Source of the DNA: Bilabrum cf. latius
Lineage: Eukaryota
Reading direction: 5' to 3'
Length of the DNA stretch: 64,000 nt
Assembly: GCA_965178125.1 (NCBI GenBank)
Contig: OZ237764.1
Coordinates: forward strand, 682,001 to 746,000
In this document: piece by piece, positions 3,172 through 32,291 of the stretch
Layout of the letters: every line of letters starts with the position of its first letter
How positions within the stretch are numbered: the first letter of the stretch is position 1
Program-made: the position numbers and the translations under genes
The notes under the pieces: generated by a model
Told to the model about the DNA's origin: nothing
The model's database searches: none
Seen by the model: only the letters and a program-made list of their open reading frames with translations

Positions 3172-5101
3172 CCCCCCCAAAGGCGGCACATAGATAAGAT
3201 AAATCTTATCTACGATTGCCTACGAATAGTCGAAAAACCTAAAGGTTTTTCTTATGGATACCTATCACTGGTTATCATTATCTGGGTTCTCCTTCCGATA
3301 CTTCCCATTTACGAATATCCATCAATTGGGAGGTATTCATCCCAAAGGGATGATAACCTCTTCCAACTACTGGTTTTCTTCTTATGCTTCCATCTCATTA
3401 AAATACACTATTACACTACACCACTCTATAAAGTATTGTATATAAAATAGTACTATTATATGAAATACTTTTGGAAGCCGTGGTTGTGGTGGGCTTCTGG
3501 CTTCGTCGACTGCTTCGGTTTCGCTTCATCAACTCTTCACCTCATCATTCTCATATTGGGAGGGCTTGTTCTCAGTAATAGACTCTATCCATCATTATGA
3601 ATCATTTCCGGATGAAATCGTCCGCATCAACTCTTCGACCAACTCTTCGACCAGTCAACCAACATATATCTTATCTGTGTCATCAGACATTGGGATTGAG
3701 GGCTGTGAGACAGCGATGGGGGCTCCGACGGGGAGGGTACAGCAGCAGCGCACGTGCAGGTGGAGGACAACAACGGCGGGAGGTGACAGCGAGGGGGCCA
3801 GGTGAGAGGGGGACAGGAGCAGACGGGGGAGCTTGGCGGAGGTGACAGGGTGGACGGGCGGCGGCCCACCAAGGGGTCGGGTGGCACCGGGGGAGGCGAC
3901 GGAGAGGGGGATTCCAAGATGAACGGAGGAAAGGGGAGGATCGGGATGCCCCGAGCGCGGTTAACCAGACGCGTGGCGGGGACGACGAAGGGGCACGGAC
4001 AGGCCCGAGCAAGCCAGTAGGGCTCGGGAGCGTGGAGGCCCATGGGGAGGGAGGGGCAGCGGAGGCAGCCGAGTGGGGCCAGACCACAAGGCAGTAGGAT
4101 TTCTGGCGAAGGCTGAGACGTACGGGTGCGTAGGGAGACAGCAGATCAGAATGGGGCAGGACTAGAAGGGGAGGCATCGGAGCGAGCCTGGAGGCGCAGA
4201 CGATGCAAGGATTGGGGTAGCGTGTACATTTGTGGCGAGTGTGGTATAGCATGCGCGAGACGCGACTGAGGAGAACCAGTCGATTCGGGGCGGACTGTCC
4301 CTCGTGGGGGGGAGAGGGCGCGGGACGGGCGCAGGGACGTCCTGTTTGTTTTTTTTATGGAACTGCCCCAACTGTGGGAGCGGGTCCGTGATTTGGCCAT
4401 TGGGCATGTAGAAGGAGCACTCATTGATTCGCAGCAGAGTTCAAACCAGATGACCAACTGTTCGACCAACTCTTCGATCAGTCAACCAACATATATCAAC
4501 CAGATGACCAACTGTTCGACCAACTGTTCGACCAACATATATCAAGGTATGACAAACTCTTCGACCAGTCAACCAACATATATGAAGGTATGACAAACTC
4601 TTCGACCAGTCAACCAACATATATGAACCAGATGACCAACTCTTCGACCAACTCTTCTAACTCTTCTAACTCTTCTAACTCTTCATACGATCATCTCCCT
4701 AGACAACCAACATATATCAAGGTATGACAAACTCTTCGACCAGTCAACCAACATATATCAACCAGATGACCAACTGTTCGACCAACTCTTCGACCAACTC
4801 TTCGACCAGTCAACCAACATATATGAACCAGATGACCAACTGTTCGACCAACTGTTCGACCAACTGTTCGACCAACTGTTCGACCAGTCAACCAACCTAT
4901 ATGAACCAGATGACCAACTGTTCGACCAACTGTTCGACCAACATATTTGAACCAGACTACCAAACTCTTCGACCAGACAACCTATATTTCTCAAGATATG
5001 ACAAACTCTTTGAGTCATCTGATATGTGAAGTGTCAAGATATGGTGGGCAACTCTTTGCCTGCTGTCAAGATATGTCAGGTCTCAGGCTCAAACTCTTTG
5101 C
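3172..5101 (+). repeat. Left TIR (~1.16 kb plus a 773-bp insertion at 3671-4443)
   Basis: Reverse complement of 31133-32291 apart from the insertion. Contains tandem 12-bp AACT(C/G)TTCGACC units interspersed with AGTCAACCAACATATAT modules. Confidence 0.95.
3671..4443. mobile_element. 773-bp GC-rich insertion present only in the left TIR
   Basis: Right TIR reads AACATATATC-AACCAGATGA contiguously; the left TIR has 773 extra bases between these. No TSD and no recognisable ORF. Confidence 0.75.
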
Positions 5102-5134
5102 GATGAACGATGATTTATTTTCTTGCTCATACTA

Positions 5135-6208
5135 ATGGATAAGATTCTAAAGCTAATAGGAATAGAACGAAATAGTAAAATACGAACTCTAATGGCTCCT
5201 CCAAAAAGACCGAAAGGACAAAATATGGGGCACCTTCCGGTCAGACCTGTCAATGTTAATGCCCAAGCAGACCTTTTATTCTTACCAGATGATAAGGGAT
5301 ATAAGTATGTCTTGTCATATGTTGATGAAAGTAGAATTGCCGATGCTGTAGCACTGAAGACTAAAAAGTCATCTGATGTGTTGAAAGCCTTCAAGAAGAT
5401 ATTCACCAGAACACCAGCACAAAGAAAAAAGCTAGGCATCAGAACTAAACTAGAACCTCCAGACCTCCTGAAAATTGATGATGGCTCAGAATTCAAAGGA
5501 GTTGTCAAGAAGTACTTTGAAGACAATGGAACATATTTAAGAGTAGGAAGAGTTGGAAGGTCAAAACAACAGGCACTAGCTGAATACTTGAATTACATCA
5601 TAGGGCGAACTGTTTATACCCTCCAGAATATCAATGAACTAGCAACCAATAAGCAAGACAAGAGTTGGACTTATATTTTACCAACAATTATCAAAGCATA
5701 TAATGAAACCAACAAGGACAAGAGACCAGACAAAACAGCTGATAACAAACCACCAATATGTCAAGGCAAGAGTTGTAATCTCTTGGAAGAAGGAGACCTT
5801 ATAAGAGTTCCATATGAGTATCCTCAAGACATCATTGGGAATAATAGACTCCACGGTAAGTTCAGGGCTGGAGACTTGAGATATAATCCTGAACCAAAGA
5901 AGATTGAGTTCATCATTCTGAAACCAAATGCCCCACCACTGTATAAAATAGAAGGAATCAACAATGCTGTCTATCATAAAGAGGAAATACAAAGAGTTGA
6001 TGACAAGGAATCAGATAACCGAAATAGTCAAACTGTTTTCATAGTTGAGAAACTTATAGGCAAGCGAAAAACCAAAGGCAGAGTTGAGTATCTCGTGAAA
6101 TGGAAAGGCTATCCAAAGTCTCAAGCTACTTGGGAACCTTATCAACAGTTAAGGGAAGATATAGGAGTTCAAGGAATCAATACACTAATCAAACAGATGA
6201 AATTATAA
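5135..6208 (+). CDS. Retroviral-type (rve) DDE integrase with C-terminal chromodomain (part A)
   Basis: QADLLFLP...KIDDGSEF...QQALAE (D,D,E); chromodomain FIVEKLIGKRKTKGRVEYLVKWKGYPKSQATWEP. ATG 5135, TAA stop. Confidence 0.9.
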   Translation: MDKILKLIGIERNSKIRTLMAPPKRPKGQNMGHLPVRPVNVNAQADLLFLPDDKGYKYVLSYVDESRIADAVALKTKKSSDVLKAFKKIFTRTPAQRKKLGIRTKLEPPDLLKIDDGSEFKGVVKKYFEDNGTYLRVGRVGRSKQQALAEYLNYIIGRTVYTLQNINELATNKQDKSWTYILPTIIKAYNETNKDKRPDKTADNKPPICQGKSCNLLEEGDLIRVPYEYPQDIIGNNRLHGKFRAGDLRYNPEPKKIEFIILKPNAPPLYKIEGINNAVYHKEEIQRVDDKESDNRNSQTVFIVEKLIGKRKTKGRVEYLVKWKGYPKSQATWEPYQQLREDIGVQGINTLIKQMKL

Positions 6209-6237
6209 TTAATAACGATACTACTAATTATAATCAT

Positions 6238-30349: not shown

Positions 30350-30360
30350 TTACTATAAGG

Positions 30361-30977
30361 GTCGGTAGGGAAACCGTGGGAAAGTCTTGGGAAAAGGTGG
30401 GATACCTTGGGGAACACCTGGGATTTCTTTGAGAAAGGTGGGATACCTTGGGGAACACCTGGGATTTCTTTGGAAAAGGTGGGATGCTGTAGGAAATTAA
30501 TTGGAAACCGAGGGGAAACCTTGGGAAAGTCTTGGGAACCTTCGCTTCGGAGAAAGACCAGACGTTCCCTCGGCTCCCGTCATGACTCTAGATGGAGACC
30601 GATGTAGAAACTCTTCAGTAAGTCTAAAATTGAGTTTTGCCCTGCGAAGTAGGGACAAATTCGTTCCTTCGGCTCCCGTATCCCTCTAACAGCAAACACA
30701 GGGATGTTTTTGGGAGGCCGTTGGATTCTTCAAATTTCTTCTGACACTTTTATAAAAACATCTCTGTCATTGCTGTAGGAGAAATATAGGAGTAGTAATA
30801 AAAGATAAACTTTAAATTCCCCTACTTTGTAGGAGATAAAAAGTAGTCTGTTTTATGAGACATGGACTATGAGACACGCTACGGAATTCTACTAGGAGAC
30901 TTAAGAGGAGTAGAGAGGCGCGGAGCGTCTCCTCTATATTGCTGTGGAGCCCCGCTCATCACACTTGACCCCCCCCC
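30361..30977. repeat. Non-coding repeat-rich region ending in a C9 run; possible terminus of virus B
   Basis: Tandem AAAGGTGGGATACCTTGGGGAACACCTGGGATTTCTTTG (~30393-30471), repeated CGTTCC(C/T)TCGGCTCCCGT, poly-C at 30969-30977. Confidence 0.45.
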
Positions 30978-31132
30978 GTTTCAATAGTCAGAAAGTGTTC
31001 AGCCTTCATTAGGTTGATGAATTTCATTATACAGATATAGGTTTTTTGTCTTTAACCCCCTTAAAATATCCCTAGATAGAAAGGATAGGAGGATAAATAT
31101 GAAATCTGGTCAGTTGATGAAAGGTATGGGAA

Positions 31133-32291
31133 GCAAAGAGTTTGAGCCTGAGACCTGACATATCTTGACAGCAGGCAAAGAGTTGCCCACCATATCTTGA
31201 CACTTCACATATCAGATGACTCAAAGAGTTTGTCATATCTTGAGAAATATAGGTTGTCTGGTCGAAGAGTTTGGTAGTCTGGTTCAAATATGTTGGTCGA
31301 ACAGTTGGTCGAACAGTTGGTCATCTGGTTCATATAGGTTGGTTGACTGGTCGAACAGTTGGTCGAACAGTTGGTCGAACAGTTGGTCGAACAGTTGGTC
31401 ATCTGGTTCATATATGTTGGTTGACTGGTCGAAGAGTTGGTCGAAGAGTTGGTCGAACAGTTGGTCATCTGGTTGATATATGTTGGTTGACTGGTCGAAG
31501 AGTTTGTCATACCTTGATATATGTTGGTTGTCTAGGGAGATGATCGTATGAAGAGTTAGAAGAGTTAGAAGAGTTAGAAGAGTTGGTCGAAGAGTTGGTC
31601 ATCTGGTTCATATATGTTGGTTGACTGGTCGAAGAGTTTGTCATACCTTCATATATGTTGGTTGACTGGTCGAAGAGTTTGTCATACCTTGATATATGTT
31701 GGTCGAACAGTTGGTCGAACAGTTGGTCATCTGGTTGATATATGTTGGTTGACTGATCGAAGAGTTGGTCGAACAGTTGGTCATCTGGTTGATATATGTT
31801 GGTTGACTGGTCGAAGAGTTGGTCGAAGAGTTGATGCGGACGATTTCATCCGGAAATGATTCATAATGATGGATAGAGTCTATTACTGAGAACAAGCCCT
31901 CCCAATATGAGAATGATGAGGTGAAGAGTTGATGAAGCGAAACCGAAGCAGTCGACGAAGCCAGAAGCCCACCACAACCACGGCTTCCAAAAGTATTTCA
32001 TATAATAGTACTATTTTATATACAATACTTTATAGAGTGGTGTAGTGTAATAGTGTATTTTAATGAGATGGAAGCATAAGAAGAAAACCAGTAGTTGGAA
32101 GAGGTTATCATCCCTTTGGGATGAATACCTCCCAATTGATGGATATTCGTAAATGGGAAGTATCGGAAGGAGAACCCAGATAATGATAACCAGTGATAGG
32201 TATCCATAAGAAAAACCTTTAGGTTTTTCGACTATTCGTAGGCAATCGTAGATAAGATTTATCTTATCTATGTGCCGCCTTTGGGGGGGGG
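31133..32291 (-). repeat. Right TIR (~1.16 kb)
   Basis: Reverse complement of 3172-3670 plus 4444-5101. Confidence 0.95.

What the first reader, a model, noticed from the sequence alone, without database searches (positions are those of the whole stretch)
3172..32291. Chimeric provirus: probably a virus nested in a virus, then collapsed by deletion
Seen: one TIR pair and one TSD enclose two divergent, inward-pointing integrase paralogues. An abrupt junction at ~15926 joins a retroelement 5' end to the middle of the MCP gene, and the GIY-YIG 3' end is lost. A repeat-rich tract ending in C9 (30969-30977) lies ~155 bp inside the right TIR. Inference: virus B integrated next to virus A's right TIR, then a deletion removed most of A, most of retroelement 3 and B's left arm. 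The hybrid keeps A ends and could be mobilised or packaged in trans.
Basis: partly seen in the sequence, partly recalled or inferred. Interest (0 to 1): 0.75.

Follow-up and report, generated by a model that had tools for sequence, protein, structure and literature searches.

The report
Two virophages fused by nested deletion
One small virus inserted itself inside another small virus resting in a protist's chromosome, and a large deletion then fused them into a crippled hybrid whose two halves even differ in whether they use the host's unusual reading of the TAG codon.

Summary
The chimera is real in this assembly. Window 3171-32291 is an endogenous virophage 'A': TIRs identical over 1,150 nt, 5-bp TSD confirmed by empty paralogous sites. 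A second virophage 'B' integrated about 16 codons into A's helicase gene, 155 bp inside the right TIR. A blunt deletion of about 17 kb then joined a Ngaro retrotransposon repeat to the middle of B's MCP gene. Both parents exist elsewhere in the genome: three complete B copies have 30361-30977 as their TIR, and an A relative on C9 still holds a whole B. One correction: there is no third retroelement at 15926; that piece is the A2 repeat of the Ngaro at 12362. The host reads TAG as Gln (a CUA-anticodon tRNA is present). B uses TAG (56 of 203 Gln-type codons); A uses none (0 of 44; A' 0 of 188). The hybrid has no whole MCP or protease, pairs A ends with B replication genes, and is single-copy, so mobilisation is unsupported. 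Read support for the 15926 junction was not obtained. Nested and recombinant virophages are already described; the codon split was not found in my searches.

The parts
3166..3170 (.). Left copy of target-site duplication GGCAC (host)
   Evidence: Empty paralogous sites at ~45281-45365 and ~50446-50530
3171..5101 (+). Left TIR of virophage A (starts with a C run; tandem repeats 4452-4942), interrupted by 3671-4443
   Evidence: found nowhere else in the assembly
3671..4443 (.). Solo A+B repeat of a second split-direct-repeat (Ngaro-type) retrotransposon family, in the left TIR only
   Evidence: 34 matches, with pieces 1-688 and 687-773 arranged as split repeats about 8 kb apart; family label inferred from that layout
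5135..6208 (+). Integrase of A (rve type with chromodomain), 357 aa, no TAG
   Evidence: 60% to the A' integrase, 35% to B's
6238..7311 (-). A ORF, 357 aa, weak Rho_N-like start, no TAG
7330..9102 (-). A ORF, 590 aa; homologue of the A' 514-aa ORF (90% over 277 aa) and of the 463-aa ORF in B's lost left arm (38% over 191 aa)
9265..9705 (+). A ORF, DUF5824, 146 aa
9761..9768 (+). Start of A's GIY-YIG gene, cut off by the Ngaro insertion
   Evidence: comparison with the uninterrupted A' gene
9769..11983 (-). Ngaro element 1: A repeat, 5-prime 1.9 kb of the ORF1 region, internal deletion of about 4.4 kb, B repeat
   Evidence: ten other copies match 122-2215 of this stretch but none continues into B; full copy on C11 is 6,660 bp
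11984..12361 (+). Middle of A's GIY-YIG gene; 3-prime end lost
   Evidence: Pfam PF01541; 91.8% to A' C9:387405-387782
12362..15926 (+). Ngaro element 2: A1 (12362-12537), ORF1 missing, RT/RNase H, tyrosine recombinase, B1 (15651-15772), A2 cut short (15772-15926)
15926..15926 (.). Deletion junction Ngaro A2 / MCP of B, 1-nt overlap, not a recombinase-type site
15926..16933 (-). MCP of B, first 336 of 589 codons
   Evidence: PF21915 E 2.8e-23; full gene in the C6 copy
17042..18151 (-). Penton (minor capsid) of B, 369 aa, 6 TAG
   Evidence: PF21507
18382..19503 (+). Maturation protease of B, interrupted by 18636-19227
   Evidence: insert absent from the C6 and C9 copies; label from gene position, visible motif and similarity to the A' ORF; no Pfam hit for the 5-prime piece
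18636..19227 (+). Internally deleted remnant of a third Ngaro-type family
   Evidence: pieces 1-403 and 395-592 lie 4-6 kb apart in several other loci
19578..20489 (+). Packaging ATPase of B, 303 aa, 6 TAG
   Evidence: AAA hits below cut-off; 38% to the A' ATPase
21175..25381 (+). B accessory ORFs (447, 391, 259, 174 aa; the last three fibre-like by appearance only)
   Evidence: no Pfam hit for the three scanned
25476..27320 (-). Protein-primed DNA polymerase B of B, 614 aa
   Evidence: PF03175; 54-56% to P0004 and P0005
27374..29185 (-). Primase-helicase of B (start codon uncertain), 11 TAG
   Evidence: DUF5906 and VapE-like
29270..30349 (-). rve integrase of B, 359 aa, 6 TAG
   Evidence: PF00665 E 2e-10
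30361..30977 (-). Right TIR of B, ending at the C tract
   Evidence: TIR of complete B copies on C6, C9 and C15; 0 of 430 mismatches to the C6 right TIR
30978..31132 (-). Remnant of A: upstream region and first ~16 codons of its helicase gene (ATG at 31027); B's target site
   Evidence: 84% over 44 nt and tblastx E 2.5e-4 to the start of the A' D5-like helicase
31133..32291 (-). Right TIR of A
32292..32296 (.). Right copy of target-site duplication

Best explanation
A decaying chimeric provirophage. Step 1 (shown): virophage A (36% GC, ends begin with a C run, no TAG codons) integrated into a host repeat unit, leaving a 5-bp TSD. Step 2 (right end shown, left end inferred): virophage B (46% GC, ends begin with a G run, TAG read as Gln) integrated about 16 codons into A's helicase gene, as B did into other low-GC viral elements on C6 and C9. 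Step 3 (shown): Ngaro-type retrotransposons inserted four times (twice in A's GIY-YIG, once in A's left TIR, once in B's protease); all four are now collapsed. Step 4 (junction shown, mechanism inferred): one homology-independent deletion of about 17 kb ran from the A2 repeat of Ngaro 2 to codon 336 of B's MCP, removing about 180 bp of Ngaro, about 13 kb of A (capsid and replication genes, sized on A') and 3.95 kb of B with its left TIR. It postdates both insertions that it cuts. End-joining repair of a break is the likeliest cause. The product cannot make a capsid and carries replication genes that do not belong to its ends, so it is most likely immobile unless helped.
For: B's TIR and three complete B copies; the window's B is 99.7-99.9% identical to the C6 copy over 19228-30977. 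Nested, undeleted A'+B locus on C9 with B's own TSD and the same gene order as A. The spacer is the 5-prime end of the helicase, where A' has it. GC steps 36/46/34% and TAG use 0 of 44 against 56 of 203 change at the junctions. A and B core proteins are only 24-38% identical (using A'). 1-nt overlap at the junction. Sizes. In Cafeteria, new helicase versions go with new TIRs and strains with only truncated elements did not reactivate (PMC10945749, passages).
Against: No contig bridging 15926 was displayed (879 pieces not shown), and short-read contigs cannot phase across the multicopy Ngaro. No intact copy of A itself exists in the assembly: A' is 92% identical over part of the arm only and has other TIRs, so the lost 13 kb is an estimate. 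B's left TSD is lost, so integrase-mediated insertion of B here rests on the exact terminus and on the sister copies. The order of the Ngaro events, and whether the deletion happened at this site, are not fixed.
Confidence: 0.8

Rival explanations
1. The nesting and the deletion happened outside this locus (in a giant-virus factory or at another site) and the 29-kb hybrid integrated here as a unit through A's integrase: a defective, helper-dependent genome trimmed towards packageable size.
For: Five insertions and several deletions lie between TIRs with 0 of 1,150 mismatches. All four retroelements inside are collapsed, while ten other copies of the family keep the ORF1 region. On C9 the outer A' TIRs are identical (0 of 430) while the inner B TIRs differ (4 of 430), as expected if a composite was copied after nesting. 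Ngaros seem to be lost during reactivation in Cafeteria, leaving AB remnants (PMC10945749, passages).
Against: Single copy. The left TIR carries an insert that the right lacks. On C6 the pattern is the reverse (inner 1 of 430, outer 16 of 410), i.e. insertion into an old resident. B's divergence from its C6 sister (29 of 11,664) fits everything being recent at this site. 5-prime-deleted Ngaros are common genome-wide. 29 kb is about 60% above the 18.4 kb of A' without inserts.
Confidence: 0.12
2. Assembly artefact: the assembler jumped inside the multicopy Ngaro or B repeats and fused two loci or haplotypes.
For: Both internal junctions border multicopy sequence; no bridging contig shown for 15926; Hackl et al. 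note repeat-driven assembly problems at EMALEs (PMC8547959, passages).
Against: The outer ends rebuild one empty host site. Left arm and right spacer both have A' as nearest relative, in the right order. The 15926 join has only 1 nt of overlap, not the long shared repeat a mis-join needs. In X1 and X4 a contig of about single-copy depth (43.5 and 49.1) links 30976 to 31044, with the letters between unresolved (these runs may be the assembly's source).
Confidence: 0.05
3. Module swap by double recombination between free A and B genomes (EMALE02-like), with no nested intermediate.
For: EMALE02 is read as such a recombinant (PMC8547959, passages). B copies look mosaic among themselves (window vs C6: 96.9% over 15926-18635, 99.7-99.9% beyond).
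Against: The right junction falls exactly at B's terminus inside A's helicase gene and the left one inside a retrotransposon repeat and mid-MCP; neither has homology, and the product lacks a capsid gene.
Confidence: 0.02
4. A genuine single virus with two integrases.
For: One TIR pair and one TSD.
Against: Each integrase belongs to a separate family with its own TIRs, termini, GC and codon use; MCP truncated; layout unique.
Confidence: 0.01

Closest known systems
Endogenous mavirus-like elements (EMALEs) with Ngaro retrotransposons in Cafeteria burkhardae (PMC8547959; passages seen)
   Same: TIR-flanked low- and mid-GC provirophages with MCP, penton, ATPase, protease, rve integrase, pPolB and helicase; short TSDs (3-5 bp there, 5 bp here); Ngaro A1-ORFs-B1A2B2 insertions, ORF1-less variants, solo AB repeats, insertions in TIRs; truncated elements still bounded by TIRs; one recombinant (EMALE02).
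   Different: EMALE02 swaps a capsid module and looks undegraded; here a whole virophage nested and was then cut, leaving an internal orphan TIR and two integrases. I did not test whether A or B belong to the mavirus clade.
Nested and chimeric virophages/PLVs of Halocafeteria seosinensis (bioRxiv 10.64898/2026.07.28.741278; abstract, section 8, part 1 of Results and passages seen; supplements closed)
   Same: Nine virophages and five PLVs embedded in other viral elements; fragments that keep TIRs and TSDs; transposon-driven decay.
   Different: That host lacks Ngaros; its main text has no occurrence of 'genetic code' or 'stop codon'. The text I saw does not resolve a nest-then-delete hybrid to the base with both parents; the closed supplements may.
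Hybrid virophage/PLV elements in cryptophytes and chrysophytes (PMC12220804; passages seen)
   Same: Two endogenous elements carry both MCP types; nested retrotransposons; rescue in trans raised as unlikely.
   Different: Virophage plus PLV rather than two virophages; origin not worked out in the passages seen.
Nuclear codes with UAG=Gln and UAA=stop: Iotanema spirale (PMC5304391, abstract); Hartmannula sinica, Trochilia petrani, Protocruzia tuzeti (PMC11687900, passages)
   Same: UAG alone reassigned to Gln; UAA and UGA stop.
   Different: Here with a candidate CUA tRNA and with resident viruses split into TAG-using and TAG-free families. I did not place the host taxonomically, so whether this is a new occurrence of the code is open.

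Membership tests
Virophage (B part) | Virophage-type major capsid protein | tested here: met
   PF21915 E 2.8e-23 on the remnant; 589-aa gene in the C6 copy; truncated in the window
Virophage (B part) | Penton, packaging ATPase, maturation protease | tested here: met
   PF21507; ATPase with AAA hits below cut-off; protease by motif and similarity only, and interrupted
Virophage (A part) | Four core morphogenesis genes | tested here: inconclusive
   Deleted in the window; present in relative A' on C9 (MCP PF22031 and PF21915, penton PF21507, ATPase, protease-like ORF)
Virophage | Dependence on a giant virus | not testable with these tools
   No infection data
Integrating virophage (EMALE-like) | rve integrase, TIRs, short TSD | tested here: met
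Genus Mavirus / EMALE clade | Core proteins monophyletic with mavirus; MV14 upstream of the ATPase | not tested
   No reference sequences fetched; no tree built
Autonomous virophage (the hybrid as a whole) | Whole MCP and protease; replication genes matching the termini | tested here: not met
   MCP 336 of 589 codons; protease interrupted; A helicase cut at codon ~16; A pPolB absent
Ngaro retrotransposon (12362-15926) | Split direct repeats A1-ORFs-B1A2B2 | tested here: met
   A1, B1 and part of A2 in the window; B2 in complete copies on C15, C9 and C11
Ngaro retrotransposon (12362-15926) | RT, RNase H and tyrosine recombinase | tested here: met
   RVT_3 over cut-off; RT_RNaseH and Phage_integrase below cut-off; no Ngaro-specific tree built
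UAG=Gln nuclear code | In-frame TAG at Gln positions; TAA and TGA terminate | tested here: met
   Opposite TAG: Q or TAG in 84 of 172 aligned positions, against 170 of 371 for CAA/CAG; Tyr and Leu not among the top eight. 20 of 31 switches go to CAG/CAA, none to TAT/TAC. Most of this rests on viral genes; host ORFs carry in-frame TAG
UAG=Gln nuclear code | Cognate CUA tRNA charged with Gln | tested here: inconclusive
   CTA-anticodon tRNA at C23:907607-907679, 69.8 bits; its best local match among the tRNAs compared is a tRNA-Tyr, not Gln; charging not testable here

The most novel reading that the evidence does not exclude
B is a virophage that preferentially integrates into other virophages, and the families in this host fall into code-committed ones (TAG=Gln) and code-neutral ones (no TAG as sense or stop) that could be translated in standard-code hosts too, or beside a giant virus whose release factor still stops at UAG. 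Nesting followed by deletion then yields mosaic, helper-dependent genomes that move as units, and this locus is one caught after such a passage.
Probability: 0.2. Interest if true: 0.8.

Novelty: new variant of a known kind. Interest (0 to 1): 0.5.

Why it matters
It gives a base-resolved route to virophage chimeras (nested integration, then deletion) with both parental types and an undeleted nested locus in the same genome; the papers I read infer such recombination from the end product or report nesting without that resolution. It shows that an internal orphan TIR plus a second integrase marks this route. The split between TAG-free and TAG-using virophages in a UAG=Gln host makes virophage host range and residence time testable from codons alone, and warns that standard-code annotation would call the intact B genes pseudogenes.

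Tried and rejected
A third retroelement at 15926: rejected. Nonsense decay of B genes: rejected; TAG read-through opens the core genes, TAA or TGA read-through does not. TAG=Leu or Tyr: rejected; the one TAG in the host BiP match is uninformative alone, and the PDB search was run without alignments and added nothing. Recombinase-mediated origin of the 15926 join: no resemblance to the Ngaro target sites seen at 9768 and 12362. Read check: 4 of 7 listed runs laid, all short-read-type contigs; no piece bridging 15926 displayed, 879 pieces and 108 loose ends not shown; inconclusive. No RNA holder listed. A motif scan for a Gln-like CTA tRNA found nothing; the family search, 63 of 780 candidates scored, then found one. 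Public viral contigs: no relative of the A' MCP among 6 pattern hits; one 30%-identity pPolB locus, L118, not examined. A release-factor gene in the TAG-free elements: no such Pfam hit among the 17 ORFs of these elements scanned or the 8 A' ORFs (not all ORFs scanned). Earlier findings: none. Literature searches: 'endogenous virophage + Ngaro + nested', 'virophage + genetic code + stop codon reassignment' (3 papers, listing only), UAG/glutamine, reactivation/packaging, 'virophage + alternative genetic code + polinton-like' (2 papers, listing only), UAG/stramenopile. No title or abstract start in those listings describes TAG-free versus TAG-using virophages in one host; most subscription journals are not covered. 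No structure prediction or complex job was run.
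Full report
Setting. The window is G000:C30:682001-746000, in a 48.6-Mb eukaryotic assembly of 111 contigs, with flanks of 57-59% GC. The HSP70 genes are long open frames and a small contig carries a tRNA cluster; I take the host to be a protist by inference and did not place it further.

Outer frame. Inverted repeats pair 3171-3670 and 4444-5101 with 31133-32291; without the terminal runs they have 0 mismatches in 1,150 nt. The 773 bp that interrupt the left copy match 34 places whose pieces are arranged as split direct repeats, so they are a solo A+B repeat of a Ngaro-type family. 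Two paralogues of the host site inside the window are uninterrupted and show GGCAC(C) duplicated. The outer 452 bp of this TIR are found only at the two ends of this element (2 of 2 candidates).

Genetic code. Under the standard code most genes right of 15926 look broken. Reading TAG as sense restores penton, ATPase, pPolB, helicase, integrase, the retroelement ORFs and host ORFs; TAA or TGA does not. Between B copies, 20 of 31 codon switches involving TAG go to CAG or CAA, 5 to AAG, 2 to TTG, 4 to others and none to TAT/TAC. In cross-family alignments (pairs at least 30% identical, positions with at least 4 identities among 8 neighbours) TAG faces Gln or TAG in 84 of 172 positions, like CAA/CAG (170 of 371) and unlike Tyr or Leu. 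A conserved pPolB column has Gln in 4 of 5 homologues; the other TAG positions fall in variable columns. A tRNA with anticodon CTA lies on C23; its best match among the tRNAs compared is a tRNA-Tyr, so its charge is not shown.

Virus B. The stretch 30361-30977 is a TIR at three other loci: C6:367315-385654, C9:355303-373023 and C15:533384-562736. Each begins with a G run, ends with the same C tract as 30969-30977 and has its own ~5-bp TSD. The window matches the C6 copy at 99.7-99.9% over 19228-30977 and 96.9% over 15926-18635. B has virophage MCP, penton, ATPase, protease, pPolB, helicase and one rve integrase. In the window the MCP keeps 336 of 589 codons and the protease is split by a 592-bp remnant of a third Ngaro-type family.

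Virus A. The left arm has one relative, A' on C9:349684-391642 (92% over 8276-9772 and 11984-12361, integrase 68% in DNA). A' is a complete virophage with MCP, penton, ATPase, protease-like ORF, pPolB-like ORF and D5-like helicase, 18.4 kb without inserts, with ends that begin with a C run like A's. It contains a whole B copy and a Ngaro: the undeleted form of the arrangement, at a different target site. The 155 bp between B's end and A's right TIR match the upstream region and first codons of the A' helicase, the first gene inside that TIR (84% over 44 nt; tblastx E 2.5e-4). So B landed about 16 codons into A's helicase. A and B integrases are 35% identical; A' and B core proteins 24-38%.

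Retroelements and the junction. Complete copies have the layout A1-ORFs-B1-A2-B2 (6,660 bp on C11), as defined for Ngaro in PMC8547959 (passages). Elements 1 and 2 interrupt the GIY-YIG gene at sites that match the uninterrupted A' gene. Element 1 has a private internal deletion; element 2 lacks ORF1, and shorter deletions next to A1 are common in this family. At 15926 the A2 repeat and B's MCP share one base; only the window spans the join among 40 of 105 candidates scored. Lost: about 180 bp of Ngaro, about 13.1 kb of A (sized on A') and 3.95 kb of B, about 17 kb in all. The 29,121-bp product is 7.5 kb A, 14.5 kb B and 7.1 kb retroelement.

Codon split. In ORFs of at least 150 codons under a GC ceiling, TAG makes up 0 of 44 Gln-type codons in the A arm, 0 of 188 in A', 0 of 377 in four related low-GC loci on C1, C21, C36 and C40, but 56 of 203 in the window's B, 27-29% in other B copies, 39-41% in a sister G-ended family, 34% in the C6 outer element and 9-15% in two host stretches. 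For the A arm alone, zero has probability 5e-7 at B's rate and 0.01 at a 10% host rate. No TAG is used as a stop in those ORFs either, but AT-rich genes rarely end in TAG (general knowledge), so this does not separate recent arrival from selection.

Nesting. Three of 4 B copies lie inside other low-GC elements, all with C-run ends. In the sister family 2 of 13 have low-GC flanks (13 of 15 paired elements examined, two pairs and two single ends left out); Fisher p = 0.053. This is a hint, not a result; purifying selection on insertions into host genes could add to it.

Reads. Five runs from two studies hold the A arm; the best may be the assembly's source. On 12545-31280, with 4 runs of contigs only, no piece bridging 15926 was displayed. 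A joint 30976-31044 with unresolved letters between appears in X1 and X4 at about single-copy depth, and a loose end in X1 matches the element-1/A-arm boundary. Misassembly is unlikely on internal grounds but not excluded by reads.

Can it move? It keeps A's outer ends and an open A integrase, but has no whole MCP or protease, and its pPolB and helicase come from a virus with different termini. In Cafeteria, helicase type and TIR sequence change together, strains with truncated elements did not reactivate, and reactivated clones had no Ngaros (PMC10945749, passages). It is single-copy. Against pure decay in place: many events lie between still-identical TIRs, and the C9 composite has identical outer but slightly diverged inner TIRs (0 and 4 of 430), whereas C6 shows the reverse.

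Comparison and verdict. Nested virophages, chimeric arrangements and TIR-bounded fragments are reported in Halocafeteria (bioRxiv 10.64898/2026.07.28.741278; supplements closed and may bear on novelty), a recombinant EMALE and Ngaro invasion in Cafeteria (PMC8547959), and two hybrid elements in cryptophytes and chrysophytes (PMC12220804). This locus is a new variant of that known kind: well resolved, with both parents at hand, and joining a TAG-free to a TAG-using virus. Interest 0.5.

Noticed in passing
G000:C23:907607-907679 (L073) and genome-wide: The host appears to read UAG as Gln while UAA and UGA stop, with a CUA-anticodon tRNA whose best match is tRNA-Tyr; this code is rare (a fornicate and three ciliates in the papers seen). 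Host lineage not determined.
   Followed up: partly
G000:C9:349684-391642; C1 ~619-632 kb; C21 ~637-650 kb; C36 ~464-471 kb; C40 ~338-346 kb: TAG-free virophage-like families (0 TAG in 565 Gln-type codons) beside TAG-using families (27-41%).
   Followed up: partly
G000:C9:349684-391642: Undeleted nested locus: complete B and a Ngaro inside complete A'; outer TIRs identical, inner B TIRs differ at 4 of 430.
   Followed up: yes
G000:C6:341546-387085: A 45-kb C-ended element with diverged TIRs (16 of 410) holds the B copy closest to the window's and further GC-rich inserts.
   Followed up: partly
about 15 loci, e.g. G000:C30:657596-674109, about 8 kb left of the window: A sister family of G-ended virophages (50-69% protein identity to B); termini fall into C-run and G-run classes across families.
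   Followed up: partly
window:3671-4443, 9769-11983, 12362-15926, 18636-19227: All four Ngaro-type inserts in this provirus, from three families, are collapsed or truncated.
   Followed up: partly
G000 Ngaro copies on C4, C9, C12, C15, C27, C36: Deletions of variable length that all begin right after the A1 repeat.
   Followed up: no
window:38155-43145 and 36371-38121: Tandem arrays: about 45 copies of a 112-bp unit (95% matches, strong strand skew) and a 107-bp unit.
   Followed up: no
window:1-3170, 32292-36000, 43457-50984: The host flank is a tandemly duplicated unit of about 5 kb (81-94% identity) with a 660-aa ORF of no Pfam family; these copies supply the empty site.
   Followed up: partly
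window:15926-18635 against G000:C6: The window's B is 96.9% identical to the C6 copy here but 99.7-99.9% further right, suggesting recombination among B copies.
   Followed up: no
window:52255-54321: Host Myb-domain ORF with 5 in-frame TAG.
   Followed up: no
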